The notes under the pieces were generated by a model. The model did not search any database. It worked only from the letters and a program-made list of their open reading frames with translations, and was not told the DNA's origin. The translations under genes were made by a program, and so were the position numbers. A stretch of DNA of 64,000 nucleotides from Thermoplasmata archaeon. GTDB taxonomy: Archaea > Thermoplasmatota > Thermoplasmata > Lutacidiplasmatales > UBA184. The first letter of the stretch is position 1, and the number at the start of each line of letters is the position of its first letter. Below are positions 26,849 to 39,509 of this stretch, in pieces. Location: the NCBI GenBank assembly GCA_027314165.1, contig DAHVCH010000002.1, forward strand, positions 103,716-167,715, given 5' to 3'.

Positions 26849-29302
26849 CTACCGCCCTCCGTGAGTGGGGGTCCGTTCGGAGGGCCGCGTCGGCGCCGGA
26901 GGCCTGACGGCGCCCCCTTTCTTCCTCTGCTCCTCGAGGGCCCGCAGGACCTTGTCCGGGGTGATGGGGAGGTCCATGAGGCGCACGCCGATCGCGTCGT
27001 AGATCGCGTTCCCCACCGCGGGGAGCGCGGCCACGAGGGGGCCCTCTCCGGCCTCCTTCGCCCCGAAGGGGCCTTCCGGGTCGTCCTCACCGACCAGGAG
27101 GCATTCGACCTTGGGCATCTGCATCGGAGTGAGGATCTTGTAATCGAGGAGCGACGGGTTCATGAGGCGCGCCCCCCGGTAGGAGAGCCCCTCGGAGAGG
27201 AGCTGGCCGAGGCCCATGTGGATCGAGCCCTCGATCTGGCCCTCCACGGCGAGCGGGTTGAGCGGTCGGCCGCAATCGAAGGCCGCCCAGACGTTCTCCA
27301 CGTGGACGAAGCCGGTCTCGAGGTCCACGTCGACCTGGGCGACGTAGGCGGAGAAGGAGTACGCCGGGGCCGTCCCGGCCTTCGCCCCCTTGAACGTCCC
27401 CCCCAGGGGCTTCGTCGAGTAGGCGCCGGAGGCCACCAGGGCCCCCTTCGTCTCCATCGCCTTGTGCAGCGCCTCGTGGAAGGGCACTCCCTGCGAGGGT
27501 CGTCCCTTGACGTGGATCCGCTCTTCGGAGGCTTCGAGGCGGTCCGGGGGGACCTCGAGCAGCTCGCTCGCGGCCTGGAGGAGCGGGACCTTCAGGTTCT
27601 CCGCGGCCGCCTTCGCCGCATTCCCCATCATGAACGTGACCCGGGACGAGTAGCTCCCGAGGTCGACCGGGGCCGTGTCGGAGTCCACGGGGGCGACGCG
27701 GCACCGGTCCATCCGGATCCCGAGGACCTCGGCGACCACCTGCGCGAGCACCGTCTTCGAGCCCTGGCCGATGTCGGCGGCCCCGCAGTGGATCGTGACC
27801 CCCGCGTCCATGTCGGCCTTGAGGTGGACCGTGCACTGGGGGAAGACCGGGGTGAAATGGATGGGGGAGTTCGATCCGGAGATGTAGAACCCGCAGGCGA
27901 CCCCGATACCCCGTCCGTAGGGGAGCTTTCGGAACTTCTCCTCCCACCCCGACCGGTCCCGGGCCGCGAGGATGCACTGGCGTACGGAGTTGGAGGTGAT
28001 GCGGAACTCGTTGATCGTCTTGAAGTTCGGCGGGAGGAAGTTCTGGAGTCGGAGCTCGATCGGGTCGAAGCCCATCCGCGCGGCGATCTCGTCGACGACG
28101 GACTCCACCGTGTAGCGCATGTTCGTCCCGCCGTGCGCGCGCATGGCGCCGGAGGGCGGATGGTTCGTGTACGCCCGCGCCCCGTGGTAGCGGAAGTTGT
28201 CGAAGCGGTAGGGGCCCATCGCCAGGACCCCGTTGTAGTAGGTCGTGACGACCCCGAAGGAGCTCCACGCCCCCCCGTCGAGGAGCGCGTCGATGTCCAT
28301 GGCGAGGAACTTCCCGTCCCCGTCGACCCCGACCGTGACGTCGTTCTGCGTCGGGTGGCGCCCGTGGTTGAGGTAGAAGACGTCCTCCCGGTCGAAGAGG
28401 ACCTTCACGGGCCTTCCGGTCTCGATGGCGAGCGCGGCGCAGGCGATCTCGTGGGGGAACGGGTCGCTCTTCCCTCCGAAGCCCCCTCCGACCTCGGGCT
28501 TGACCACCCGGATCCGGTGCATCGGCATGCCGAGCACCTCCGAGAGCGAGCGGTGGAGGTAGTGGGGGACCTGTGTCGCGGACCAAACGGTGAGCCGGCC
28601 GTCGGGGGTGTGCTCGGCGATGGTGCAGTGAGGCTCGGTGAAGCCGTGGGTCACTCCCAGGTACTTCCCCGAGAGCTTCACCTTCTGGGAGGCGCCCTCG
28701 AGCGCCTTCGGCACGTCGCCGAAGTGCTGGAAGACCTCCTTCTGGAGGTTCGTGTCGCGGAGCGCCCGGTCGTGGATCTTGACCGGGACCGGCTCCCGGG
28801 AGACCTTCGGGTCGTCGTAGACCGGCAGAGGCTCGTACTCGACGCGGATCAGCTCGAACGCGCGTTCGCACGTCTCCTCGTCCACCGCCGCCACCGCGGC
28901 CACGTGCTCCCCCAGGAACCGGACCCTGCCGACGGCCAGCGCGGTCTCGTCGTGGGTCATCGGGAGGACCCCGAAGGGCGTGGGGTACCGGTCGCCGGTG
29001 AGCACCGCGGCGACGCCGGGGAGCCGGCGCGCCTCCTCGACGTCGATGGAACGGATCCGGGCGTGGGGATGGACCGACTTCAGCAGCCGGCCGACGAGCA
29101 TGCCGGGGCGCTTGATGTCGTCCGTGTACTCCGCGCGCCCCGTGACCTTGAGCGCGGCATCGATGAGCGGCGTCCGCTTGCCGATGAGGTGGTACCCGGA
29201 GCTCGCGCGCGTCGCCTCGGCCTCCTTGACGAGGTCGGTCTCGGCCGAGGAAGGCCTCGGCGTCCCCGCGCTCCCGCTCTTCCGGCTGGAAGTCCCGGCC
29301 AT
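26849..29302 (-). CDS. molybdenum hydroxylase large (molybdopterin-binding, CoxL/XdhA-like) subunit
   Basis: KVTGRAEYTDD, VGGGFGGK, and GQG..T aldehyde oxidase/xanthine dehydrogenase family motifs. ATG at 29302, 3 nt after the small-subunit stop. The form I CODH active-site loop was not seen. Confidence 0.92.
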   Translation of the reverse strand: MAGTSSRKSGSAGTPRPSSAETDLVKEAEATRASSGYHLIGKRTPLIDAALKVTGRAEYTDDIKRPGMLVGRLLKSVHPHARIRSIDVEEARRLPGVAAVLTGDRYPTPFGVLPMTHDETALAVGRVRFLGEHVAAVAAVDEETCERAFELIRVEYEPLPVYDDPKVSREPVPVKIHDRALRDTNLQKEVFQHFGDVPKALEGASQKVKLSGKYLGVTHGFTEPHCTIAEHTPDGRLTVWSATQVPHYLHRSLSEVLGMPMHRIRVVKPEVGGGFGGKSDPFPHEIACAALAIETGRPVKVLFDREDVFYLNHGRHPTQNDVTVGVDGDGKFLAMDIDALLDGGAWSSFGVVTTYYNGVLAMGPYRFDNFRYHGARAYTNHPPSGAMRAHGGTNMRYTVESVVDEIAARMGFDPIELRLQNFLPPNFKTINEFRITSNSVRQCILAARDRSGWEEKFRKLPYGRGIGVACGFYISGSNSPIHFTPVFPQCTVHLKADMDAGVTIHCGAADIGQGSKTVLAQVVAEVLGIRMDRCRVAPVDSDTAPVDLGSYSSRVTFMMGNAAKAAAENLKVPLLQAASELLEVPPDRLEASEERIHVKGRPSQGVPFHEALHKAMETKGALVASGAYSTKPLGGTFKGAKAGTAPAYSFSAYVAQVDVDLETGFVHVENVWAAFDCGRPLNPLAVEGQIEGSIHMGLGQLLSEGLSYRGARLMNPSLLDYKILTPMQMPKVECLLVGEDDPEGPFGAKEAGEGPLVAALPAVGNAIYDAIGVRLMDLPITPDKVLRALEEQRKKGGAVRPPAPTRPSERTPTHGGR

Positions 29303-29304
29303 CG

Positions 29305-29793
29305 TCACCGCTCCTGGGCGGGGGCGAGCGTACGGGCCGCCGCCTCCACCGCATCGAGGATCTTCACGTAGCCGGTGCAACGGCAGAGGTTCCCCGAGAG
29401 GGCCCTCGAGATCTCGTCCCTGGTCGCTCCCGGGTGGTCGCGTAGGAAGGCGACCGCGGTCACGATGAACCCCGGCGTGCAGAAGCCGCACTGGGTCGCC
29501 CCAAGGTCGATGAAGGCCCTCTGGACCGGGTGAAGAGCGCCCGCGGGGGAGATCCCCTCCACGGTGGTCAACTGGTGGCCCTCGGCGAGCTTCGCCAGCA
29601 TGAGGCAGGAGAGCCTCGGCTCCCCGTCGACCAGCACCGTGCAGCAGCCGCAGGTTCCCAGGTCGCACCCGCGCTTCGTCCCCGTGAGGTTCAGCTCCTC
29701 GCGCAGCACATCCAGCAGGATGCGCTGGGGAGGCAGATGGAGCTCGTGCTCCTCCCCGTTCACCCTAAGCCGGACCGGGACTTTCTTCGGCAT
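29305..29793 (-). CDS. molybdenum hydroxylase small [2Fe-2S] (CoxS/XdhC-small-like) subunit
   Basis: Two [2Fe-2S] clusters: CDLGTCGCCTV...C and QCGFCTPG...CRCTGY. Confidence 0.95.
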   Translation of the reverse strand: MPKKVPVRLRVNGEEHELHLPPQRILLDVLREELNLTGTKRGCDLGTCGCCTVLVDGEPRLSCLMLAKLAEGHQLTTVEGISPAGALHPVQRAFIDLGATQCGFCTPGFIVTAVAFLRDHPGATRDEISRALSGNLCRCTGYVKILDAVEAAARTLAPAQER

Positions 29794-30622
29794 GGGCCTG
29801 GGCGGCCTCCTCCGCCTTGGATCGGACCGTCCCTCCCTCTCGGGGGGGATGGAGGTCCTGGATGATCTCGCCTACGAGGCTCACGGCGATCTCCTCCGGG
29901 CTCTGGGCGCCCATCGGGACCCCCACCGGGGAGCGAAGTCGGACAAGGGTCTCCTCGGGGAGCCCTCGGGCCCGGAGCCCCTTGAAGGTCAGCTCCCGCT
30001 TCGTGCGGCTCGCGATGAGCCCCACACGGCCCTCGAAGTCCGGCAGCAAATGGAACGCAGCCTCCTCGTCCTTCTGAGCGTCGTATCCGAGAAGATAAGC
30101 GTGGCTGAAGTGGTCCCCGGAGGCCCGGAGGGTGGGCAGGAGCTCCGACGGGGCGACCGTCCATCGGTGGCGGGCCCGGGGGAACCGCTCGGCGGTGGTG
30201 AACTCGGGTCGATCGTCGGAGATCGAGTAGTCGTAGTCCAGGAGGTCCATCTGCTTCGCGAAGGCCAGCGCCACGTGCCCTCCTCCCCAGATCAGAACGT
30301 TAGGGCGTGGCGGAACGTACTGGAGCGACACGTCCACGCTTCCTCCGCACCGGCTCGAGAGCCCGCCGGGCTTCCACGCCATCAGGTCGAAGCGATGGAG
30401 GCCCCCTTCCTTCTGGCGGAGCGCGCCCCGGGCTAAGAACCTCACCTTCTCCTCGAGCCCCGCGCCGCCCACGGTGCCCACGACGCTGCCGTCCTCATGG
30501 ACGAGCATCGTCGTGCCTTTCTTCCCCGGCACCGAGCCGTGCGCGTCGACGATCGTCGCGAGCACGACCGGCCGGTGCGCCTCGGTCAGGGCCAACGCCT
30601 CCTTGAGCACCTTCCGGTCCAT
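29765..30622 (-). CDS. XdhC/CoxI-family Mo-cofactor insertion accessory protein
   Basis: LATIVDAHGSVPGKKGTTMLV..GTVGGAGLE N-domain plus a Rossmann-like VLIWGGGHVALAFA C-domain. It overlaps the small-subunit start by 29 nt. Confidence 0.85.
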   Translation of the reverse strand: MDRKVLKEALALTEAHRPVVLATIVDAHGSVPGKKGTTMLVHEDGSVVGTVGGAGLEEKVRFLARGALRQKEGGLHRFDLMAWKPGGLSSRCGGSVDVSLQYVPPRPNVLIWGGGHVALAFAKQMDLLDYDYSISDDRPEFTTAERFPRARHRWTVAPSELLPTLRASGDHFSHAYLLGYDAQKDEEAAFHLLPDFEGRVGLIASRTKRELTFKGLRARGLPEETLVRLRSPVGVPMGAQSPEEIAVSLVGEIIQDLHPPREGGTVRSKAEEAAQAHAEESPGPA

Positions 30623-30624
30623 GG

Positions 30625-31290
30625 TCAGCTCTCCCGGGCTGGAGGGAGGGAGGTCCCCGGGGGCCCGAGTCGCTGGATCCGACCCAACGCCGACGCGAGC
30701 GCTTCCGGGGTGTCGATGTTCTCCAGGACCCCGGGGTCCTCGACGGGAACTTCGAGCACGTGCCCGGGGTGGGACCGAAGATAGCGGAAAAGGGGTTCGT
30801 CGTCCCGATAGCCGAGGACCTCCTCGCGCGCGGTGTCGCTCAAGAGCACAGGATGCCCGCGGCGCCCCTCGAAGGTCGGCAGGGCCCAGTGGGCCGGGTC
30901 AGGGGTCCGGGTCTTGGAGAGGCGGGAAGCGGCCGCGCGGAGGAGAGTGTCGAGGGTAGAGGGGAGCACGAAGGGATGGTCGACGGGCCACAGGAGGGTG
31001 CCCCCCAGACCCGCTCCCGCCTCCGCTAGACCGCGCTTGAAGGAGCCGGTGCGTCCCTGGGCCCATCCGGCGTGGACGCAGGAACGTGCCCCGGGCAGGT
31101 CACGAAGCTCCTCCTGAAGCGCCGGGGCGTGGGCCCCGAGCACCACGATCACGGGGGAGAACGAGGCGGAGATGGCGGTCCCGACGATCCTGCGAAGGAC
31201 CGTTCCCCCGCCGGGGACGGCGAGGAGCGCCTTCGGGACCGGGCCCGACCGGACCGAGGCCCCGGCGGCCAGCACGACGCAGGCGGGCAC
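30625..31290 (-). CDS. MobA/MocA-like nucleotidyltransferase (molybdenum cofactor cytidylyl/guanylyltransferase family)
   Basis: VVLAAGASVRSG..PKALL and WPVDHP motifs. GTG start. The stop is 2 nt from the xdhC-like start. Confidence 0.8.
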   Translation of the reverse strand: MPACVVLAAGASVRSGPVPKALLAVPGGGTVLRRIVGTAISASFSPVIVVLGAHAPALQEELRDLPGARSCVHAGWAQGRTGSFKRGLAEAGAGLGGTLLWPVDHPFVLPSTLDTLLRAAASRLSKTRTPDPAHWALPTFEGRRGHPVLLSDTAREEVLGYRDDEPLFRYLRSHPGHVLEVPVEDPGVLENIDTPEALASALGRIQRLGPPGTSLPPARES

Positions 31291-31469: not shown

Positions 31470-32792
31470 ATGGCGGTAGGGCAACGTGGTCAGGTCCAGC
31501 GATCTCCGGGGGGGATTCCTCCCCCCGCCCCCGGGGTGCCGCCCCCGCCGCCCACCCCGCCTATAGGCGGGCGTCCGGGCTATCCCACCAAGAAGAAGGA
31601 GCGCCTAGGCGCGGGGTTCCTTCGCCGGAAGAGGCCCGTTCCCGTTCCGGGCCGGGAGATGCCCTCCCCGTCCGAGGTGGTCCAAGCTCTCACCCACTTC
31701 CCCCACACCGCCGCCCCTCCCCTGCGGGGAGCGATCCCGCTCGATGTCCGGTTCCACCCGATGACGTTCCCTCACCCTTCGCGCCCTCCCTGGAGGTCTT
31801 GCGGACGGTACGCGATCGTCTTCCAGCTCCTCTTCGGCCACAACAACCCGACGCCGATGATCCTCCGGCTCTACCACACCCAGTGGCTGCCGTCGGCCGA
31901 CGCTCGCTACGCCGCGATCACGCGGTGGGTCTGGCAGGCGCCCTCGACGCTCAAGGGGGTGTTCGTCGGGACCTGGTACTACCACCAGGGCGCGCACATC
32001 ATGTTCACGGGAGCGAACGGCCAGAAGCGGGCCGAGTGGTTCCCCGCGCTGGTCATGGAGCGGGCCACGGGGACCTCGCTCGACGAGCACCTCCGAGTGC
32101 TGGACTCCCTCGAACCCGCCGAGCGGGACTGGCGCTACCGCAGGCTGACGAACAACGTGCTGACCTTGGCCGACCGACTGCAGGACGCGGGGGTGTCGCA
32201 CGGTGACGTGAGCTTCGACAACCTCTTCATCGACAGCCAGGACGACATCCATCTCGTCGACTACGACAGCCTGTACATCCGCGGGGTCGACCTGCCGCCC
32301 TCCCCCATCGTCGGGCAGCCGGAGTTCCAGCACCCGGACGTCATCAGCGGGAAGGCCAAGTGGCCGAAGAAGTCGGACCGCGGGGCCGTGGCCGACTCCT
32401 TCGCGTTCCTCGTGCTCACGCTGCTTCTCACCCTGAACCGCGTCGACCCGCAGTTCTGGCGGATGGTGGGGAGGACCAAGCCGGCCTTCTCCGGACGTGA
32501 CTTCGAGCGGGCCTCCCTCTACAACCGGAAGAGCGAGCTGGTCCGGCTGCTCGGCCACCCTCACGCCGGGGTGCGGCGGCTCGCCCAGATCCTGATCAAG
32601 GGGTGCGACGACCACCTGGCCACCTGCGTGCCGCTCCGCCAGCTCCTGCTTCCCGACCTGCGCGCAGCCATCGACCGAGGGGCGCCGCCCCGGGTGGATG
32701 TCCCGCATCGGGGTCAGTTCGCCGCCTACGGCGGAGCGTATCCCCCGCCAGGCCCCCCTCCACCGGGCGCCGCCTACCATCCGCCCGGATGA
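31470..32792 (+). CDS. atypical protein kinase-like protein with Pro-rich termini
   Basis: Catalytic-loop-like HGDVSFDNLFI followed by LVDYDSLY (at the DFG position) and a helical C-lobe. No obvious Gly-rich loop. Both termini are Pro-rich (PPPAPGVPPPPPTPP; YPPPGPPPPGAAYHPPG). ATG 31470 is preceded by a weak TATA-like element (TTTCCGTAAAGA). ATG 31659 is an alternative start. Confidence 0.6.
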   Translation: MAVGQRGQVQRSPGGIPPPAPGVPPPPPTPPIGGRPGYPTKKKERLGAGFLRRKRPVPVPGREMPSPSEVVQALTHFPHTAAPPLRGAIPLDVRFHPMTFPHPSRPPWRSCGRYAIVFQLLFGHNNPTPMILRLYHTQWLPSADARYAAITRWVWQAPSTLKGVFVGTWYYHQGAHIMFTGANGQKRAEWFPALVMERATGTSLDEHLRVLDSLEPAERDWRYRRLTNNVLTLADRLQDAGVSHGDVSFDNLFIDSQDDIHLVDYDSLYIRGVDLPPSPIVGQPEFQHPDVISGKAKWPKKSDRGAVADSFAFLVLTLLLTLNRVDPQFWRMVGRTKPAFSGRDFERASLYNRKSELVRLLGHPHAGVRRLAQILIKGCDDHLATCVPLRQLLLPDLRAAIDRGAPPRVDVPHRGQFAAYGGAYPPPGPPPPGAAYHPPG

Positions 32793-32857
32793 ACCTCCGG
32801 GCCCCCCTGCGCTCCCCACGAGCAGCCCGCGTCGTGTGTGAAGGAGGACCTAAGCGA

Positions 32858-32877
32858 GCATGCGGGCTCCCGCATGC
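32858..32877. terminator. perfect inverted repeat GCATGCGGG-CT-CCCGCATGC between convergent genes
   Basis: 9-bp arms read directly, 66 nt downstream of the kinase-like gene stop. Confidence 0.3.
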
Positions 32878-32952
32878 CCCCGGCCCCTCTCAGGTGAGCC
32901 CGTTGGGTCTCGAGGCGCGGCATCCCCCCTCGCACGGCGCCGGGACGGGGGA

Positions 32953-32976
32953 GGGCGGGGCGTTCTCGCCCCGCCC
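32953..32976. terminator. perfect 10-bp GC hairpin GGGCGGGGCG-TTCT-CGCCCCGCCC
   Basis: Read directly. It lies 18 nt downstream (minus-strand sense) of the vWA gene stop at 32994. Confidence 0.3.
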
Positions 32977-32993
32977 GGAGCTCCGTGTCGGTC

Positions 32994-33848
32994 TTACGCC
33001 ATGGGTGGGGCCACCATGGGCCCCGTCCGGGTTCCGACCTGCAGGATCTTGATGAGTTCCTTGCCGCCGATGTTGTATCCGTAGCACTTGGGCAGCCCCG
33101 GGGAGACCGGAAGCCCGACCCGCTGGGCCTCGGCGGCCATCGAGGGGGGCAAGTGGCTCGCGCACCGGAAGAGCAGCTGCGCCTCGGGCGTCTGCGGGGC
33201 CTCCTGCTCGTTGCAGAAGATCGCCGGAGGGAACGTGTCGGAGTCCCCGATGTGCAGGCTGAAGATGAGCACCATCGACCCGTTCGCGTTCGTGACGCGC
33301 TTGAGCCGCGTGCAGATGTCGACGAGAGACTGCCAGTTCTCCTGGGTCCTGGGCTCGGGGATCCCGTCGGTGATGTTCAGGATGATCGGGGGGTAGCTGT
33401 TCGGGTTCGTCGCCACCCACTCCTTCACCGGCTCCTCCAGCAACGCGAAGGCCTGCGTCATCGGCGTGCGGCCCTCGGCGACCGGTCGGATGACCTGGAG
33501 CCGGCCGTCCGCCCAGCCGTTGTTCTGGTCGGTCCACTCCGCCATTCGGTCGAGCGGGAGGATGAGGGGGTCCTGCTGGCTGCCGACGATCGGAGCGACG
33601 AGGTCTCCCTGGAAACCGTAGGAGATGATCTGGCTGTGGAAGTAGGGAACGACCTTGTTGTTCTTCGTGCAACGGAGGAGCAGGTCGTCCAGGATGCCGT
33701 TGATCTGGTCGGCGAGGAAATCGCACTTGCGGACCCCAGGCATGCCCCGGATCTCCGCCTTCATGGAACCGCTCTGGTCGATCAGGAAGATGATGCACCC
33801 TGGCTGGTTGTGCGTTACGCTGACTTCTTCGGTGTAGGGCTCGACCAC
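32994..33848 (-). CDS. von Willebrand factor A (vWA) domain protein, TerY-like
   Basis: MIDAS motif IIFLIDQSGSM, a downstream Thr (GRTPMTQA), and ILNITDG. No signal peptide or TM segment, so it is predicted cytoplasmic. GTG start, TAA stop. Confidence 0.85.
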   Translation of the reverse strand: MVEPYTEEVSVTHNQPGCIIFLIDQSGSMKAEIRGMPGVRKCDFLADQINGILDDLLLRCTKNNKVVPYFHSQIISYGFQGDLVAPIVGSQQDPLILPLDRMAEWTDQNNGWADGRLQVIRPVAEGRTPMTQAFALLEEPVKEWVATNPNSYPPIILNITDGIPEPRTQENWQSLVDICTRLKRVTNANGSMVLIFSLHIGDSDTFPPAIFCNEQEAPQTPEAQLLFRCASHLPPSMAAEAQRVGLPVSPGLPKCYGYNIGGKELIKILQVGTRTGPMVAPPMA

Positions 33849-33881
33849 GTGTATCCCTCACGCGTGCGAACCACTCGCACG

Positions 33882-33887
33882 TATAAA
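33882..33887 (-). promoter_or_regulatory. TATA box (TTTATA on the minus strand) for the vWA gene
   Basis: Plus strand reads GTATAAATGG. It is centred about 36 nt upstream of the vWA GTG at 33848, in the only AT-rich patch of the divergent intergenic region. Confidence 0.35.
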
Positions 33888-34102
33888 TGGCTCGGTTAAG
33901 GGAATGGGCTCCAGAGAGCTCACCTCAAGGCCCGAGAAGGAACGCGGGTTGCGCACCGCCCCGGAGGCTCCGGGGAGCGCCGGGCAGGGAACAGTGCGTT
34001 CGACCACCGGCTTCTTGTACACCTTCTCATCCTCCACCAGCGCAGGGGACCCGGCGACGCCCGGGACCGTGGAGGCCTCGTTCCCGGACGGAACCGACCC
34101 GC

Positions 34103-34990
34103 ATGCCGAGCAAGTCCTCTCCACTCTTCACCTTCTTCGAGAGCATGGTCATCTCGAAGGGCCCGCTCTCGGACTGCGACGACCGGGTCTCGCACTCCCC
34201 GCTCGACAAGTACGTACGGGTCGCTTCCTCTGACGAGCACCGCGTGCTCGAGGCTGGGACCTTCCGACGCAAGCAGGAGACGGTCCGCATCGCGGTCTCC
34301 GACGGAGCCACGGAGTCCTCCTGGTCGGGGATGTGGGCCCAGATCCTGACGGACGCCTTCGTCGAGGGCACGCTGCCCTGCTCGTCCCCCGATGCGTTCC
34401 TGGCCGCACTGCCGGACCTCGCCAAGCGGTGGAAGAAGGACACCGAGCCGCTGCTGGACACGTCGAACCAGAGGGCCGTGCGCAAGCGCGACCAAGGGGC
34501 GTTCGCGACCTTCCTGGGCATCGAGGCGAATCCCGCGGAGGGGACCTGGCGCGCGATCACGGTCGGAGACTCCTGCCTGCTCCGCAACTCGGGCGACAGC
34601 AAGCCCCGTCTGGTCTCCTGGCCGGTGGAAAGGGCCTCGGACTTCGACACGACCCCTCCCCTCGTCACGACCCAGGAGGGGACGACGCCCCAGCCCCTCG
34701 TCCAGGAGGGTTCGCTCGAGAACGGGACCCACCTCTGGGGCGCCACGGACGCCCTGGCCAAGTTCCTCATCCAGTGGCCCGGAGTGCTGCTCGACCGCGA
34801 ACGGTTCAGCGAGGTCGCCGACGGGCTGTTCGAGATGCTCGGCCCGCTCCAGGGCGGGGGCGTGCTGAAGATGGACGACCTGACGTTGGTCTCGCTGGAG
34901 TTCGACAAGGACGAGACGGTGTTCAAGCGCCGGTACGCCCTCCACCACCTCTTCCGAGCGGGCCGGATGCTCTCGAAGCTCTCGCGCTGA
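34103..34990 (+). CDS. PP2C-family (PP2C_2-like) serine/threonine phosphatase
   Basis: IAVSDGATES, ATFLGI, ITVGDSCLL, LWGATDALAKF, and MDDLTLVSL correspond to the metal-binding Asp motifs of bacterial PP2C_2 phosphatases. ATG at 34103 (alternative 34145). The upstream part of ORF 33887.. is Arg/Pro junk. Confidence 0.75.
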   Translation: MPSKSSPLFTFFESMVISKGPLSDCDDRVSHSPLDKYVRVASSDEHRVLEAGTFRRKQETVRIAVSDGATESSWSGMWAQILTDAFVEGTLPCSSPDAFLAALPDLAKRWKKDTEPLLDTSNQRAVRKRDQGAFATFLGIEANPAEGTWRAITVGDSCLLRNSGDSKPRLVSWPVERASDFDTTPPLVTTQEGTTPQPLVQEGSLENGTHLWGATDALAKFLIQWPGVLLDRERFSEVADGLFEMLGPLQGGGVLKMDDLTLVSLEFDKDETVFKRRYALHHLFRAGRMLSKLSR

Positions 34991-35109: not shown

Positions 35110-37320
35110 GTGGGGCCCCGACCTAGTCCTGGAAACGCCTTCCCCAAGAGCCTCGCCGCGCCACAGGCGCTCCTTGCGGCGATCCTCCTCGCGGCCCTTG
35201 CGCTTCTCTCCCCCCTCGGGACCTTCGTGGCTCTCGCCCCGTACGCGCCAGAGCCCTCGGCATCCCCCGCGCCATCTCCCTCGCCCCCCTCGCCCCCCTC
35301 GCCCTTGCTCCCGTCCTCTCACGATGGGGGCACGCCGGAGCACGTCGCGGGGGCCCTCCCCCCGGCGGGTCTCTCCCCCTCGGTCCACGCCAATCCGCCC
35401 CGACCGACCCTCTCCGAAGCCCGGGCGGGGATCGGCCCTTCCCCACACCTGGCCCTGACGGGTCCCACGGCCTCTCCCGCGAGCGTGGACCAGGGCCAGT
35501 GGGTCAACTTCTCGACCACCCTCACGGGCGGGATTCCGCCCTACAACTACACCTGGTATGGGCTGCCCTCTCCTTGCAACAGCAGCTGGACCCCGGTCGT
35601 CGACTGCTTGTCGACGGTCGCCTCCACGTTCTCCATCTACGTGAACGCCTCCGACAGCTTCGCGGTCAATGCCACCAGCGGGACCCTCGCGTTCCCGGTG
35701 CTGCCGGATCCGGCGGTCTCCGTGACCGCGAACCGGACGTCGCTGACCCTGGGAGGTTCGGTGCAGTTCCTGGCCACCGCCAGCGGAGGCGCCGGGACCT
35801 ACCCGACCTACGCCTGGACGGAGAGCTCCACCCAGCTCGGCTGCGCCAGTTCGAGCGGGCCGACCCTGGTCTGCACACCTCTCTCGTTGGGTTCGGGCTG
35901 GACCGCGTCGGTGGCCGTGACCGACTCCAACGGCTGGACCACTCCCGCGCAGACCTCGCCTCCCGTCAGCGTCCAGGGCGTGCTGAAGGCCCCGGCGCCG
36001 GTCGCGAACCGGAGCAGCGTGGACGTGGGACAAGCGGTGCTCTTCACCGAGACCGCCTCGGGAGGCTCTCCTCCCTACACGTACTCCTGGTCCGGGCTGC
36101 CCAGCGGCTGCCTCGCGTCGAACTCCCCCTCGATCTCCTGCACGGTCCTGGGTGCGGGCACCCAAGCGGTGCAGGTCACGGTGACCGACTCGGGGTCCTC
36201 CTCCGCGTCCAGCCCGGTCCTCCCGTTCAGCTCCTACACCGACCCCGTCGTGGGGTCTCCCGTCGCATCGCCCCCCTCCGTTGACGCGGGCATGTCCTCG
36301 AACCTGTCGGTGTCGGTGACCGGAGGGATCGGGCCGTTCTCGTACGCCTGGGAGGGTCTCCCCTCGGGCTGCCCGGCCGCCCCTCTTGTCGTGACCTGCG
36401 TCTTCCCGACCGCGGGGACCTACCCGGTCCGGATGTCGGTGATCGACGGCGACCAGTTCTCGTCGCTCGGGCCGGTGCTCGACGTCCTCGCGGCGGCGGA
36501 CCCCACGGTCAACGCGACCGGCACGAGGGCGAGCGTGGACCTCGGACAGAGCGTCACGCTCCTCGCCGTGGTGAGGGGCGGCGTGGGGAACTTCACGTTC
36601 AACTGGTCGTCGGTCCCCTGCGCTCTCGGCGGACCGAGCCCTAACGGGCTCCCACCTTCCATCACCTGCATCCCGGTCGTGACCGGGGAGTTCAACGTGA
36701 CCGCCCTGGCCACGGACCGCGTGGGATGGACGAGCTCCTCGCTGCCCTTCCGTCTCCACGTCTGGCCGCGCCCCTGGATCGAGAACTTCAACGCGAGCGC
36801 GACGAGCCTCCAGGTCGGAGGGACGAGCACGTTCTCGGTCAGGGCCCACGGTGGGGGAGGGACCCTGCACTACGCGTACGCGGGTCTGCCGAAGGGCTGC
36901 ACCGGGGTCGACGCCCCGACGCTCACCTGCACCTTCGACCGGGCCGGGAACTACACGGTCCGCGTGGTGGTCTCGGACCCCACGGGAGCCAACGCCACCG
37001 CCTCGCTCTCCGTCCACGCCAGCGGGACCCTGCCGCCCGCGGCGCCCGCCTCCTCGGTCACGCCGGTGGGGGTGGTCGCCGCGGTCCTGCTGCTCGGAGG
37101 GCTTCTGGTCCTCGCCCTGCTGGGTTTGATGTACGTGCTCTTCCGGGGGTCCCGGGCCTCCACCCGCCCCCCTCAGACCGGCTTCACCGGTCTTCCGTAC
37201 CGGGCCCGTCCCTCGGGACCGGAGCCCGCGCCGCGGGAGCCGCGACCGCCCGCGAGCCGCGGTCCGGCGGTCGGCGCGCCGTCCTCGGACCCGGGAAACC
37301 CATCAGCCGGGATTAAATAG
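35110..37320 (+). CDS. cell-surface glycoprotein with about 7 PKD/Ig-like repeats, N-terminal signal peptide and C-terminal TM anchor
   Basis: Signal-like LLAAILLAALALLSPLG, then repeats each carrying GG.PPY.Y.W.GLP.GC (for example GGIPPYNYTWYGLPSPC, GGSPPYTYSWSGLPSGC, GGIGPFSYAWEGLPSGC). There are more than 15 N-x-S/T sequons and a C-terminal VGVVAAVLLLGGLLVLALLGLMYVLF followed by a basic/Pro tail. GTG 35110 chosen as start. Confidence 0.8.
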   Translation: MGPRPSPGNAFPKSLAAPQALLAAILLAALALLSPLGTFVALAPYAPEPSASPAPSPSPPSPPSPLLPSSHDGGTPEHVAGALPPAGLSPSVHANPPRPTLSEARAGIGPSPHLALTGPTASPASVDQGQWVNFSTTLTGGIPPYNYTWYGLPSPCNSSWTPVVDCLSTVASTFSIYVNASDSFAVNATSGTLAFPVLPDPAVSVTANRTSLTLGGSVQFLATASGGAGTYPTYAWTESSTQLGCASSSGPTLVCTPLSLGSGWTASVAVTDSNGWTTPAQTSPPVSVQGVLKAPAPVANRSSVDVGQAVLFTETASGGSPPYTYSWSGLPSGCLASNSPSISCTVLGAGTQAVQVTVTDSGSSSASSPVLPFSSYTDPVVGSPVASPPSVDAGMSSNLSVSVTGGIGPFSYAWEGLPSGCPAAPLVVTCVFPTAGTYPVRMSVIDGDQFSSLGPVLDVLAAADPTVNATGTRASVDLGQSVTLLAVVRGGVGNFTFNWSSVPCALGGPSPNGLPPSITCIPVVTGEFNVTALATDRVGWTSSSLPFRLHVWPRPWIENFNASATSLQVGGTSTFSVRAHGGGGTLHYAYAGLPKGCTGVDAPTLTCTFDRAGNYTVRVVVSDPTGANATASLSVHASGTLPPAAPASSVTPVGVVAAVLLLGGLLVLALLGLMYVLFRGSRASTRPPQTGFTGLPYRARPSGPEPAPREPRPPASRGPAVGAPSSDPGNPSAGIK

Positions 37321-37358
37321 TGAACCCCGTTGAATCGGCTCCCGCTCGAGAACCGCGC

Positions 37359-37814
37359 ATGACCCATCCTAAGGAAGTCCCCGCAAGCCACCTCCTGCCG
37401 AGGCTGGCCGCCGAGCTCAGGAACAACGCCTCGATCAAGCCCCCCGTCTGGGCGGCGTACGCGCGCACCGGTGTCCACACCGAGCGTGCCCCCGTGCAGG
37501 CCGACTGGTGGTACCTTCGGACCGCTTCGGTCCTCCGCAAGCTCCACACGGTTGGCCCATCCGGTGTCAGCAACCTGGCGGCCACCTATGGTGGTCGGCG
37601 GGACCGGGGCAGCGCGCCCTACCACGCGCGCAAGGGCAGCCGCTCGGTCGCCCGCGAGATCCTCCAGCAGCTCGAGAAGGCGGGGCTCGTCCAGCAGGTC
37701 CGGCTACGGGGACGCTCCCTGTCGCCTCAGGGCCAGAAGCTCCTCTCCAAGGTCTCCGGCGAGGCCTTCAAGGCCCTCGCCGAGAAGGACCCGTCGCTCA
37801 AGAAATACCTCTGA
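37359..37814 (+). CDS. rps19e: 30S ribosomal protein S19e
   Basis: KPPVWAAYARTG..ERAP....WWY.R.ASVLRK.....GV..L...YGG signature. ATG at 37359. Confidence 0.95.
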   Translation: MTHPKEVPASHLLPRLAAELRNNASIKPPVWAAYARTGVHTERAPVQADWWYLRTASVLRKLHTVGPSGVSNLAATYGGRRDRGSAPYHARKGSRSVAREILQQLEKAGLVQQVRLRGRSLSPQGQKLLSKVSGEAFKALAEKDPSLKKYL

Positions 37815-37919
37815 CGCCTCTCCAGGCATCACCCCGGTCGGTCGAGCGAGCGGATGGAGCGTGGCTTGGCACAGCGGAAGCAGCTCGGACGACCGGACGG
37901 AACAGGAGGGAGAAAGCGC

Positions 37920-38282
37920 ATGGCCCAGGGCGGTGAGGATACGGAGCTCGAGGAGCTGCGCCGGCGGCGCATCGCGTCGCTCCAATCCCAGCTCTCCGCC
38001 GGTCAGGTCGACCCGAACTTCCTCGCGGCGCAGCAGGCCGAGATGGAACGCCGTTCGTCCGAGCAGCGGGATGCACTTCGGAAGATCCTGACCCCGGAGG
38101 CCCGGGAGCGCCTCGGCAGGATCCGACTGGCGAAGCCCGACGTGGCCCAGTCCGTCGAACAGCAGATCCTCTCCCTCGCGGCGTCCGGGCGGCTCCGCCG
38201 TCAGATCGATGACGAGACGCTGCGTCAGATCTTGGAGCGGCTCATGCCCGAGAAGCGGGAGATCAAGATCACCCGCCGATGA
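37920..38282 (+). CDS. DNA-binding protein, PDCD5/TFAR19 family
   Basis: ILTPEARERLGRIRLAKPDVAQSVEQQIL core. It has the conserved archaeal position between rps19e and rpl39e. ATG at 37920 is preceded by AGGAGGG. Confidence 0.85.
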   Translation: MAQGGEDTELEELRRRRIASLQSQLSAGQVDPNFLAAQQAEMERRSSEQRDALRKILTPEARERLGRIRLAKPDVAQSVEQQILSLAASGRLRRQIDDETLRQILERLMPEKREIKITRR

Positions 38283-38330
38283 GCTAACGATTTAAACCGG
38301 TCGAGGGAGGGTAGGGAGCGTTCAAGGACC

Positions 38331-38489
38331 ATGGCGAGCCGTCACAAGCCCTTCGCACGGAAGCTTCGGCTCCTCCGTGCGGTCAAACAGAACCGTCGAG
38401 TCCCCGCCTGGGTCATGCAGAGGACCTCCCGCCGATTCACGAAGCACCCGAAGCGTCGCAGCTGGCGCCGGGGCCACATGCAGCTCTAG
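38331..38489 (+). CDS. rpl39e: 50S ribosomal protein L39e
   Basis: Not on the ORF track (52 aa). I translated it by hand as [52 protein letters not shown]-stop, a typical L39e. A TTTAAA element lies about 38 nt upstream. Confidence 0.9.
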
Positions 38490-38513
38490 GGGCGGAGGCG
38501 AGGTCGGTCGGAC

Positions 38514-38810
38514 ATGGCGAAGGAAGAGAAGACCCGTATCGAGGAGCTCGAGCGAGAGTTCATCGTGCCGCTCCGTGCGAGCCAGCACGCCCCGCCGCGC
38601 CGGGAGCGCGCGAGCCACTCCATCCTGACGATCAAGCGCTTCATGGTCCGCCACATGAAGGGCGAGATGAAGGACATCTGGATCGACCCTCGTCTCAACG
38701 AGTTCCTCTGGGAGCGTTCCATCGCGCACGTCCCCTCGAAGGTGCGCGTGAAGGCGATCCGGTTCGAGGACGGCCTCGTTGAGGTCGACCTGGCCGAGGA
38801 CGAGAGCTAG
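38514..38810 (+). CDS. rpl31e: 50S ribosomal protein L31e
   Basis: REFIVPLR...RRERA...I..F..RHMK......ID..LNE.LW.R L31e pattern. Confidence 0.95.
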   Translation: MAKEEKTRIEELEREFIVPLRASQHAPPRRERASHSILTIKRFMVRHMKGEMKDIWIDPRLNEFLWERSIAHVPSKVRVKAIRFEDGLVEVDLAEDES

Positions 38811-38843
38811 GGAGGACCCACCTCCCCGGGGGCAGGGCTCAGT

Positions 38844-39509
38844 TTGCCGGTCGGCAAGGCCTCATACTCTGGCAGCCCCTATCTCGGGGTCTACCTCCGC
38901 GTGGGAGAGAAGCTCGCGGTCGCGCCTCCCTCGTGCCCGGGCGAGCTCGTCCGGGCCAGCGAGCACACGCTCGGAGTGAAGGTCATTCGGAGCCGCGTCG
39001 GGGACACCGAGCTCGTCGGCTCGCTTCTCGCGCTCAACGACCGCGGGGCGGTGCTTTCCGAGGAGCTGACGCCGCTCGAGCGCAGCCACCTCGAAGAACA
39101 CCTGAACGTCACCATCCTGAGGAGCCGGCTGAACGCCCTGGGGAACAACATTCTCGCCAACAACAAGGGCGCCGTCTGCCACCCGGATTTCACCCCGGAC
39201 CAGCGGCGCCGCCTCTCCGAGGCCCTCGGGGTCCCGGTCGTCCCCTCGACCGTCGCGGGGCTGGGGACGGTGGCCATGGCCGCCGTGACCACGGACCGCG
39301 GCACCGTCGTCCACCCCCGGGCCACCCCAAAGGAGGTCGAGGTCCTCGAGCAGGCGCTCGGGGTCCCGGCCCACCGTTCCACGGCGAACTTCGGGGTGCC
39401 CCTGGTCGGAGCGTGCATCGTCGCGAACTCTCGCGGGGTCCTGGTCGGAGACCCGACCACGCCCGTGGAGGTCGTCCACATCCAGGAAGGGCTGCGCATC
39501 TTCGACTGA
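38844..39509 (+). CDS. eif6: translation initiation factor 6 (aIF6)
   Basis: Five-fold pseudo-repeat with GSPYLGVY, VGSLLALNDRGAV, LGNNILANNKGAV, VAMAAVTTDRGTV, and VGACIVANSRGVL. TTG start. Confidence 0.95.
   Translation: MPVGKASYSGSPYLGVYLRVGEKLAVAPPSCPGELVRASEHTLGVKVIRSRVGDTELVGSLLALNDRGAVLSEELTPLERSHLEEHLNVTILRSRLNALGNNILANNKGAVCHPDFTPDQRRRLSEALGVPVVPSTVAGLGTVAMAAVTTDRGTVVHPRATPKEVEVLEQALGVPAHRSTANFGVPLVGACIVANSRGVLVGDPTTPVEVVHIQEGLRIFD

What the first reader, a model, noticed from the sequence alone, without database searches (positions are those of the whole stretch)
31470..34990. Clustered vWA + PP2C phosphatase + atypical kinase triad (TerY-P-like) in an archaeon, in a non-operonic convergent/divergent layout
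**Seen in sequence.** Three adjacent genes encode:
- A kinase-fold protein with HGDVSFDN and DYD motifs, no recognisable Gly-rich loop, and Pro-rich ends.
- A cytoplasmic vWA protein with an intact MIDAS (DQSGSM).
- A PP2C_2-type phosphatase (VSDGATES, VGDSCLL, GATDAL, DDLTLV).

**Established knowledge.** This combination was described by comparative genomics as the TerY-P triad of bacterial Ter stress-response loci. Its function is still experimentally undefined.

**Inference.** Here the kinase and vWA genes are convergent, separated by two perfect GC hairpins. The vWA and PP2C genes are divergent around a 254-bp region with a TATA box. The cluster is followed directly by a seven-repeat PKD surface glycoprotein. 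It may be a phosphorylation-controlled vWA switch linked to envelope or stress sensing. Archaeal examples are essentially uncharacterised.
Basis: partly seen in the sequence, partly recalled or inferred. Interest (0 to 1): 0.75.

Follow-up and report, generated by a model that had tools for sequence, protein, structure and literature searches.

The report
Rearranged TerY-P defence-type triad, archaeal
Three neighbouring genes in a Thermoplasmata archaeon (a metal-binding vWA protein, a PP2C phosphatase and an atypical protein kinase) are a very divergent copy of the bacterial 'TerY-P' module, which has been reported to protect against phages. Here it is split into three separately transcribed genes instead of one operon.

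Summary
Each protein matches one of three consecutively numbered PADLOC models named TerY, PP2C and STK_OB (E = 2.6e-33, 2e-18 and 2.6e-15).

In about 165 related loci the normal layout is a co-directional vWA>PP2C>kinase operon. The kinase> <vWA PP2C> layout occurs only in this Thermoplasmata clade. There it is kept in four genomes at one chromosomal site, between molybdoenzyme genes and ribosomal-protein genes.

All catalytic and MIDAS residues are intact, and all three genes are under purifying selection. The vWA protein is 97.5-99% identical between species whose ribosomal proteins are only 85-94% identical.

The kinase has none of the C-terminal OB, zinc-ribbon or membrane modules of its relatives. 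Like most of its family, it has Arg in place of the beta3 catalytic Lys.

The PKD neighbour is not conserved, so an envelope link is unsupported.

Verdict: a divergent archaeal variant of a known system, of moderate interest. Its mechanism and its role in this archaeon remain inferred.

The parts
31470..32792 (+). Atypical ePK-like Ser/Thr kinase, TerY-P type. The conserved core starts at M64 (31659). Residues 1-63 are a lineage-specific Pro-rich and basic extension, and the protein ends in a Pro-rich tail. It has no OB fold, zinc ribbon or TM segment.
   Evidence: PADLOC STK_OB 2.6e-15 for residues 130-332 against model positions 58-236 of 562. Pfam Pkinase 2.2e-5. A 23-sequence family profile hits PAK, ULK3, WNK and PKC kinases at about 1e-10. 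H244/D246/N251 and D264-Y-D266 are kept. R133 aligns with PKA K72. dN/dS is 0.11-0.16. The upstream frame is open with an ATG in L008 and L087.
32858..32877 (.). Perfect 9-bp GC hairpin with a 2-nt loop, 66 nt downstream of the kinase stop codon.
   Evidence: It is degraded in the 96%-identical genome L007, so it is probably not a conserved element.
32953..32976 (.). Perfect 10-bp GC hairpin with a 4-nt loop, 17 nt downstream of the vWA stop codon on the minus strand. Candidate 3'-end element of the vWA transcript.
   Evidence: It is identical in L007 although the rest of the spacer differs. It is absent from L008 and L087, where other genes fill the spacer. No T-tract follows it.
32994..33848 (-). 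TerY-like cytoplasmic vWA protein with a complete MIDAS (D24, S26, S28, T128, D161). It is the most constrained gene of the module.
   Evidence: PADLOC TerY 2.6e-33, residues 8-275 against model positions 4-273 of 277. AF2 pLDDT 82.8, with Foldseek hits to CMG2, integrin I, Rpn10 and Ku vWA domains. MIDAS columns are 99-100% conserved in 90 homologues. The start codon is GTG, TTG or ATG at the same position in three species. dN/dS is 0.016-0.035. No hydrophobic segment.
33882..33887 (-). Archaeal TATA box (TTTATA on the minus strand), 34 nt upstream of the vWA start codon. It might also drive PP2C divergently.
   Evidence: It is the only invariant block of the spacer in four genomes. The hexamer occurs 3 times in 64 kb against 0.24 expected. 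Its function as a promoter is inferred.
33849..34102 (.). 254-bp divergent spacer between the vWA and PP2C genes.
   Evidence: It is poorly conserved apart from the TATA box, and only 180 bp long in L087. No conserved TATA-like element lies close to the PP2C start.
34103..34990 (+). PP2C (PPM) phosphatase of 295 aa, with all metal-binding aspartates kept (D27, D67, D156, D216, D258/D259).
   Evidence: PADLOC PP2C 2e-18, model positions 23-240 of 242. Pfam PP2C_2 9e-6, above the cut-off. Conservation map of 73 homologues. DNA conservation begins at ATG 34103. dN/dS is 0.13-0.28.

Best explanation
This is a highly divergent member of the TerY-P (TerY-phosphorylation) triad family, inherited vertically in a Thermoplasmata lineage.

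**Shown.**
- The three proteins are homologues of the TerY vWA, PP2C and kinase components.
- All active-site and MIDAS residues are intact.
- All three genes are under purifying selection.
- They stay together at one chromosomal site in four genomes, but as three separate transcription units rather than one operon. The vWA gene has its own conserved TATA box.

**Inferred mechanism.** The vWA protein is the hub. It binds a partner or trigger through its MIDAS metal site. The kinase (writer) and the PP2C (eraser) set the phosphorylation state of the vWA protein or of a protein bound to it, giving an on/off switch. PP2C holds the system off until a trigger lets kinase activity dominate.

**Most likely role.** By homology with stand-alone bacterial TerY-P modules, the role is defence against viruses or other invaders. 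The downstream effector step is unknown, as it is for the bacterial systems. This kinase lacks the OB, zinc-ribbon or membrane module that its relatives carry.
For: **Family identity.**
- Hits to three consecutively numbered PADLOC models named TerY, PP2C and STK_OB, at 2.6e-33, 2e-18 and 2.6e-15.
- Of 80 genome loci found with the vWA profile, about 50 carry vWA>PP2C>kinase co-directionally. The same pattern is the commonest one in 80 metagenome loci.
- All three archaeal proteins are outliers to the same degree. The vWA protein is 34% identical to the others against a bacterial median of 46%; PP2C is 28% against 36%; the kinase is 24% against 34%. This fits co-evolution as a set.

**Integrity.**
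- MIDAS, PP2C aspartates and the kinase HxD..N and DYD motifs are all kept.
- dN/dS is 0.016-0.28.
- The same conservation order (vWA, then kinase, then PP2C) is seen in most of the closest bacterial pairs, which fits the vWA protein being the hub.

**Defence link.**
- PMC11090510 and PMC7699616 report that Gao et al. 2020 showed TerY-P modules to be anti-phage.
- Relatives sit next to an MmeI-like restriction-modification gene with Mrr_N, and next to a PIF1 helicase with a DEAD/MZB protein.
- One relative is on a conjugative plasmid.
- A family kinase is fused to a TIR domain.

**No extra component.** No conserved fourth gene was found across phyla.
Against: - No experiment exists on this or any archaeal copy.
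- The locus is not in a defence island. It lies between molybdoenzyme/XdhC genes and a ribosomal-protein cluster.
- It is fixed in synteny across species with dS up to about 0.9, which is unlike typical patchy defence genes.
- The vWA protein is more conserved than the neighbouring ribosomal proteins.
- The kinase lacks the OB fold of the experimentally tested type. It has Arg at the beta3 Lys position and no alphaC Glu. In canonical kinases a K-to-R change there is inactivating (my own knowledge), so kinase activity is unproven.
- The three genes are not co-transcribed, so co-regulation is assumed rather than shown.
- No relative was found in IMG/VR.
Confidence: 0.6

Rival explanations
1. Domesticated signalling circuit. 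The triad descends from TerY-P, but in this lineage it has become a fixed, core regulatory switch (for example for stress or growth-state signalling) and is no longer an antiviral system. Splitting it into three promoters lets writer, eraser and hub be regulated independently.
For: - The same syntenic slot between housekeeping genes is kept in four genomes.
- vWA dN/dS is 0.016-0.035, lower than S19e, L31e and eIF6 in the same comparisons.
- A rare, canonical TATA box is conserved in front of the vWA gene.
- The effector-like C-terminal kinase modules are lost.
- No adjacent defence genes.
- An archaeal precedent exists for a phosphorylation-controlled vWA regulator: ArnA/ArnB with the ArnC/D kinases and PP2A (PMC6509490, PMC12852372).
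Against: - Equally low vWA dN/dS occurs in bacterial TerY-P pairs (0.020-0.04), so strong constraint is a family trait and not a sign of domestication.
- Only four closely related genomes were available, so synteny among them is weak evidence of fixation.
Confidence: 0.28
2. Envelope or surface-sensing module. The triad works with the adjacent PKD-repeat surface glycoprotein and relays an extracellular signal by phosphorylation.
For: - A PKD surface protein follows PP2C in the window.
- In L008 a Kelch/PKD surface protein with a TrmB-like cytoplasmic tail lies directly downstream of the kinase gene.
- Surface-propeller + vWA + kinase/phosphatase threat sensors exist in Actinobacteria (the Esr pathway, bioRxiv 10.64898/2026.09.08.750141).
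Against: - The surface genes differ in position and are only 29% identical over generic PKD repeats.
- L087 has no such gene. It has a GNAT acetyltransferase and a 208-aa protein without Pfam hits.
- Bacterial relatives have no conserved surface partner.
- The triad proteins have no TM segment.
- There is no MoxR ATPase or FHA protein, which the Esr and ternary systems have.
Confidence: 0.07
3. Ter-type metal or tellurite stress response, the context in which the TerY-P triad was first described.
For: The family name and the original comparative-genomics description (Anantharaman et al. 2012, as cited in PMC11090510 and PMC4978471). An intact metal-binding MIDAS.
Against: - No TerD, TerB, TerC or TerZ genes within about 10 kb.
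- tblastn against all PLSDB plasmids found only three hits, none annotated as TerY.
Confidence: 0.04
4. Chance adjacency of three unrelated genes, or a decaying remnant.
For: The genes are not co-oriented. Insertions of up to 5 kb separate the kinase from the vWA gene in relatives.
Against: - Each protein's best defence-library match is the corresponding TerY-P component.
- Homologues of the same three proteins are operonic in about 90 other loci.
- Reading frames and catalytic residues are intact and dN/dS is far below 1.
Confidence: 0.01

Closest known systems
Stand-alone TerY-P anti-phage system (Gao et al. 2020; PADLOC models TerY, PP2C, STK_OB)
   Same: The same three protein families. 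The vWA and PP2C proteins match the models over their full length, and the kinase matches over its catalytic domain. MIDAS and catalytic residues are conserved. It is a self-contained three-gene set with no conserved fourth gene.
   Different: - Archaeal host.
- Genes arranged kinase> <vWA PP2C> as three transcription units, instead of a vWA>PP2C>kinase operon.
- The kinase has no C-terminal OB fold.
- All three proteins are long-branch outliers at 24-34% identity.
- Not in a defence island.
- Anti-virus activity is untested.
TerY-P triads embedded in Type II/III-A CoCoNuT (McrBC-related) systems and Ter-associated loci (Anantharaman 2012; PMC11090510; PMC4978471)
   Same: A triad of TerY-like vWA protein, PP2C and Ser/Thr kinase, proposed to act as a phosphorylation-dependent switch.
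   Different: Those kinases carry a C-terminal zinc ribbon. They sit in large operons with McrB/McrC-like, helicase, nuclease or WXG100/FtsK genes. None of these genes is near the archaeal triad, and the kinase has no zinc ribbon.
ArnA (FHA) / ArnB (vWA) with kinases ArnC/ArnD and phosphatase PP2A in Sulfolobus (PMC6509490, PMC12852372)
   Same: An archaeal cytoplasmic vWA protein whose interactions are switched by eukaryotic-type Ser/Thr kinases and reversed by a phosphatase. This is the only experimentally studied archaeal vWA phospho-switch I found.
   Different: No homology was shown here. There is no FHA partner, the phosphatase is PP2A-type rather than PP2C, and the genes are not a triad. 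The output there is archaellum expression. This is an analogy of mechanism only.
vWA-MoxR 'ternary' conflict systems / Esr threat-sensing pathway (bioRxiv 10.64898/2026.09.08.750141)
   Same: A vWA protein plus a kinase/phosphatase pair used for threat sensing. Some family kinases give weak hits to TCAD9, a ternary-complex-associated domain.
   Different: No MoxR AAA+ ATPase, no FHA protein and no conserved surface sensor are present here.

Membership tests
TerY-P triad | TerY-like vWA protein with an intact MIDAS motif | tested here: met
   PADLOC TerY 2.6e-33 over the full length. D24/S26/S28/T128/D161 are present and 99-100% conserved in the family. The vWA fold is confirmed by an AF2 model and Foldseek.
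TerY-P triad | PP2C-family phosphatase encoded next to the vWA gene | tested here: met
   PADLOC PP2C 2e-18 and Pfam PP2C_2 above the gathering score. All metal-binding Asp residues are kept. The gene lies 254 bp from the vWA gene.
TerY-P triad | Eukaryote-type Ser/Thr kinase encoded in the same cluster | tested here: met
   PADLOC STK_OB 2.6e-15 over the kinase domain. The family profile hits ePKs at about 1e-10. HxDxxxxN and DYD are present. Catalytic competence is uncertain because the beta3 Lys is Arg.
TerY-P triad | The three genes form one co-directional operon (vWA>PP2C>kinase) | tested here: not met
   The window has kinase(+), vWA(-), PP2C(+). Among about 165 loci, only this Thermoplasmata clade has the vWA gene inverted relative to both partners. 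This is a typical property of the family rather than part of its definition.
Gao-type stand-alone TerY-P (STK_OB) | Kinase fused at its C-terminus to an OB fold | tested here: not met
   Only model positions 58-236 of 562 match. The C-terminal 100 aa are helical and then Pro-rich. The Bathyarchaeota homologue L049 (807 aa) has a long C-terminal extension whose sequence I read as OB-like; no domain search confirmed this.
CoCoNuT-associated TerY-P | Kinase with a C-terminal zinc ribbon, and neighbouring CnuH/CnuE/McrBC-like genes | tested here: not met
   No Cys/His cluster in the C-terminus. The neighbours are molybdoenzyme, XdhC, MobA-like and ribosomal-protein genes.
Ter (tellurite-resistance) stress locus | Association with terZABCDE, TerD or TerB genes | tested here: not met
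   No such Pfam families within about 10 kb on either side in L001 and L087. No TerY-annotated plasmid gene was recovered by tblastn.
TerY-P triad | Confers resistance to phage or virus infection | not testable with these tools
   This needs expression and infection assays. For the bacterial family it is reported only through secondary sources (PMC11090510, PMC7699616). The primary paper was not available.

The most novel reading that the evidence does not exclude
In this Thermoplasmata lineage an ancient TerY-P module has been domesticated into a chromosomally fixed core phospho-signalling circuit. The vWA protein is held under tighter constraint than ribosomal proteins and is driven by one of the very few canonical TATA boxes in the region. 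It would be a hub whose state is set by separately regulated kinase and PP2C genes, and the circuit would no longer serve antiviral defence. That would be a case of an immune module turned into housekeeping regulation in archaea.
Probability: 0.25. Interest if true: 0.55.

Novelty: new variant of a known kind. Interest (0 to 1): 0.35.

Why it matters
TerY-P has been reported as an anti-phage system, but I found no mechanistic study of it in the searchable literature and no characterised archaeal example. This copy offers three things.
- It is a minimal version: the kinase domain alone, with no OB, zinc-ribbon or membrane module.
- It is a natural experiment in which the three genes have been uncoupled transcriptionally yet kept together and intact. 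This suggests the three proteins suffice as a unit, and that stoichiometry can be set by separate promoters.
- It gives clear family-wide clues. The vWA protein is the most constrained part. The kinase has Arg in place of the beta3 Lys and no alphaC Glu. Both points direct mechanistic experiments.

It does not open a new category. Standard defence-system annotation with PADLOC would probably flag it.

Tried and rejected
- AF2 model of the kinase from a 4-sequence alignment gave pLDDT 43.8. It was too poor to use, so no fold search was run on it.
- The word-indexed homologue search for the kinase, full length and core, found only its own clade plus one weak hit.
- A metagenome scan with kinase-derived patterns found nothing. 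The vWA-profile metagenome scan found only relatives at 36% identity or less, so no intermediate archaeal lineages turned up.
- The IMG/VR scan found no relative.
- The Gao et al. 2020 primary paper is not held, by DOI or by PMC id, so its results are cited second-hand.
- The Rfam scan of 29-40 kb found nothing. No tRNA lies nearby. No bacterial-type promoter or terminator was found.
- I first read the extreme conservation of the vWA protein as evidence of domestication. I then found equally low dN/dS in some bacterial TerY-P pairs, so I downgraded the idea to a rival.
- I looked for a conserved fourth (effector) gene in bacterial relatives and found only lineage-specific synteny.
- I looked in the window for the second VWA_2 gene seen downstream in L087. 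It is not there.
- I considered the two hairpins as conserved terminators. Only the vWA-proximal one is kept in L007, and neither is present in L008 or L087.

Full report
**1. What is in the sequence**

The window has about 70% G+C. It carries archaeal ribosomal-protein genes: ORFs at 37320-37814 and 38514-38810 are the counterparts of genes with S19e and L31e Pfam hits in the related contig L087. Near-identical and related contigs are deposited as 'Thermoplasmata archaeon' MAGs.

- a kinase-like protein, 31470-32792 (+), 440 aa;
- a vWA protein, 32994-33848 (-), 284 aa;
- a PP2C protein in ORF 33887-34990 (+).

Every quoted motif is present. The true PP2C start is ATG 34103 (295 aa). DNA conservation among four genomes begins exactly there, and bacterial homologues are mostly about 240-290 aa.

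The vWA start is well defined. The same codon position is GTG, TTG or ATG in three species.

None of the three proteins has a hydrophobic segment.

**2. Family assignment**

Pfam alone is lukewarm: PP2C_2 9e-6 (passes), Pkinase 2.2e-5 (below the cut-off), VWA_2 0.055.

Against PADLOC, each protein hits one of three consecutively numbered models named TerY, PP2C and STK_OB:
- TerY, 2.6e-33, full length;
- PP2C, 2e-18, full length;
- STK_OB, 2.6e-15, kinase domain only (model positions 58-236 of 562).

An AF2 model of the vWA protein (pLDDT 82.8) matches solved vWA domains, including CMG2/ANTXR, integrin I domains, Rpn10 and Ku.

A profile of 23 family kinases hits eukaryote-type kinases (PAK, ULK3, WNK, PKC) at about 1e-10.

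**3. Co-conservation and layout**

A vWA-profile scan of one genome per GTDB species found 545 relatives. I analysed the best 80, plus 80 metagenome loci and a few others, with iterated HMMs for the three proteins.
- The dominant pattern is vWA>PP2C>kinase on one strand: 48 of the first set and 39 of the second, plus variants with duplicated genes.
- This includes a Bathyarchaeota MAG (L049) and a conjugative Acaryochloris plasmid.
- Mixed orientation with the vWA gene inverted relative to both partners occurs only in the Thermoplasmata clade.
- Two Obscuribacterales loci have only the kinase divergent.
- Pseudanabaena loci have the vWA gene alone.
- No fourth gene is conserved across phyla.

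**4. The archaeal clade**

Four genomes carry the same arrangement at the same site, between XdhC/MobA-like molybdoenzyme-maturation genes and the S19e-L39e-L31e-eIF6 cluster:
- the window, which is nearly identical to GCA_027314175;
- L007, 95.8% nucleotide identity;
- L008, 78-90% nucleotide identity;
- L087, whose kinase is 80% identical at the protein level.

Two slots vary. Between the kinase and vWA genes there is 201 bp (window, L007), a 1600-aa Kelch/PKD surface protein (L008), or a GNAT acetyltransferase (L087). After PP2C there is a 736-aa PKD protein (window), nothing (L008), or a 208-aa protein (L087). The two PKD proteins share only 29% identity over generic repeats. So the divergent vWA/PP2C pair with the kinase nearby is the conserved unit, and the PKD neighbour is not part of it.

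No closer relatives were found in the 5.8-billion-protein index, the metagenome collection, IMG/VR or 1.84 billion cluster representatives. All three proteins are long-branch outliers to a similar degree, which fits co-evolution as a set.

**5. Selection and integrity**

Nei-Gojobori estimates against L008 / L087:

| Gene | aa identity | dN/dS |
|---|---|---|
| vWA | 98.9% / 97.5% | 0.016 / 0.035 |
| Kinase core | 89% / 80% | 0.11 / 0.16 |
| PP2C | 86% / 72% | 0.13 / 0.28 |
| S19e | 87% / 85% | 0.10 / 0.12 |
| L31e | 94% / 93% | 0.054 / 0.076 |
| eIF6 | 76% / 74% | 0.17 / 0.29 |

The vWA protein is therefore more constrained than the neighbouring ribosomal proteins. This is not specific to the archaea. 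Some bacterial TerY-P pairs show vWA dN/dS of 0.02-0.04, and most of the closest pairs show the same order of vWA, then kinase, then PP2C. I read this as the vWA protein being the hub of the module.

MIDAS residues, the PP2C metal-binding aspartates and the kinase catalytic loop (H244, D246, N251) and DYD (264-266) are all kept.

**6. Oddities of the kinase**

- Only one glycine of the Gly loop remains.
- The residue aligned with PKA Lys72 is Arg. It is R133 here, and the column is Arg in 84% of the family, whose consensus is AVRCF.
- There is no conserved alphaC Glu, but an invariant R-Y pair instead.
- Relatives end in different modules: TM anchors (my reading of the C-terminal alignment columns), a long OB-like extension in L049 (also my reading, not confirmed by a domain search), tandem kinase domains, or a TIR domain in P0017. 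The archaeal protein ends in a Pro-rich tail.
- It may carry a 63-aa Pro-rich and basic N-terminal extension. The reading frame, an upstream ATG and a KKxxRxGxGxxRRK motif persist in L008 and L087 despite in-frame indels. Gene callers start at M64.

**7. Regulatory features**

The only invariant block in the 254-bp vWA/PP2C spacer is TATAAA at 33882-33887. It reads TTTATA on the vWA strand and lies 34 nt before the start codon. The hexamer occurs 3 times in 64 kb against 0.24 expected. No comparable element precedes PP2C or the kinase gene.

The two perfect hairpins in the kinase/vWA spacer are non-random: none of 2000 shuffles gave two, and the window has only 7. Only the vWA-proximal one is conserved in L007, and neither is present in L008 or L087. 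No T-tract follows either. No Rfam family or tRNA lies nearby.

**8. Interpretation**

Membership of the TerY-P family is secure.

How it works is inferred. I propose a MIDAS-vWA hub whose phosphorylation state, or that of a bound partner, is written by the kinase and erased by PP2C.

The role is most likely defence, for these reasons:
- TerY-P-like modules were reported as anti-phage, active against T7-like phages, by Gao et al. 2020 (as cited in PMC11090510 and PMC7699616);
- relatives sit beside restriction or helicase genes and on a conjugative plasmid;
- a family kinase is fused to a TIR domain.

Against a defence role here are the housekeeping neighbourhood, the stable synteny and the loss of kinase accessory domains. 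These keep a 'domesticated signalling circuit' reading alive, at about 0.25-0.3.

**9. Verdict**

It is a divergent archaeal variant of a known system, with a unique non-operonic layout and a minimal kinase. Interest is moderate (0.35). It is a useful minimal model and a source of mechanistic hints, not a new kind of system.

Noticed in passing
window 31866-31868 (kinase R133); family alignment A4: The residue aligned with the catalytic beta3 lysine (PKA K72) is arginine in this kinase, and that column is Arg in 84% of the TerY-P-type kinases examined (family consensus AVRCF). The alphaC glutamate is also not conserved, while an R-Y pair is invariant. This raises the question of whether these are conventional kinases.
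   Followed up: partly
window 32994-33848 compared with 37320-39509: The vWA protein is 97.5-99% identical between species in which the ribosomal proteins S19e and L31e and the factor eIF6 are 74-94% identical (dN/dS 0.016-0.035). Similar constraint occurs in some bacterial TerY-P loci.
   Followed up: yes
L008 7995-12797 (-): In a sister species a 1600-aa protein sits between the kinase and vWA genes. It has Kelch beta-propellers and PKD repeats. From the sequence I also read a TM segment, and there is a weak TrmB-like match (E = 0.007) in the C-terminal tail. This looks like a membrane-tethered regulator architecture.
   Followed up: partly
window 35110-37320 (+): The PKD neighbour is 736 aa. 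It has an N-terminal hydrophobic leader, six PKD-like repeats (GG..PY.Y.W.GLP.GC motif), 15 N-x-S/T sequons, a C-terminal TM segment and a cytoplasmic tail of about 65 aa. The start codon is probably GTG 35110, so the long ORF from 34333 that overlaps PP2C is an artefact of high G+C.
   Followed up: partly
window 464, 18954, 33882: TTTATA occurs only three times in the 64-kb window on both strands, so canonical TATA boxes are rare in this 70% G+C genome. One of the three is the vWA promoter candidate.
   Followed up: partly
P0017 and P0015 (one search hits); L009, L010, L012, L013 kinases: Relatives of this kinase occur as tandem double-kinase proteins, as a double kinase fused to a TIR domain, and (in Dehalococcoidia and Acidimicrobiia) as what look like tail-anchored proteins with a Pro/Ala-rich linker and a C-terminal TM helix. 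The C-terminal module is the variable part of the family.
   Followed up: partly
L001 (GCA_027314175 contig DAHVCG010000015.1): In the near-identical MAG the contig ends 17 nt upstream of the vWA start codon, inside the vWA/PP2C spacer. This may reflect strain heterogeneity or an assembly problem at that spot.
   Followed up: no
L033, L034, L039, L041, L042, L053 and other Pseudanabaena loci: Cyanobacterial homologues of the vWA protein (296 aa) have no PP2C or kinase homologue within the fetched flanks (up to 7 kb each side), so the TerY-like vWA protein also exists outside the triad.
   Followed up: no
window 26849-31290 (-): A molybdenum hydroxylase (xanthine/CO dehydrogenase family) cluster lies directly upstream of the kinase gene and is syntenic in all relatives. 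It comprises large subunit, Fer2 subunit, XdhC and a MobA-like nucleotidyltransferase.
   Followed up: no
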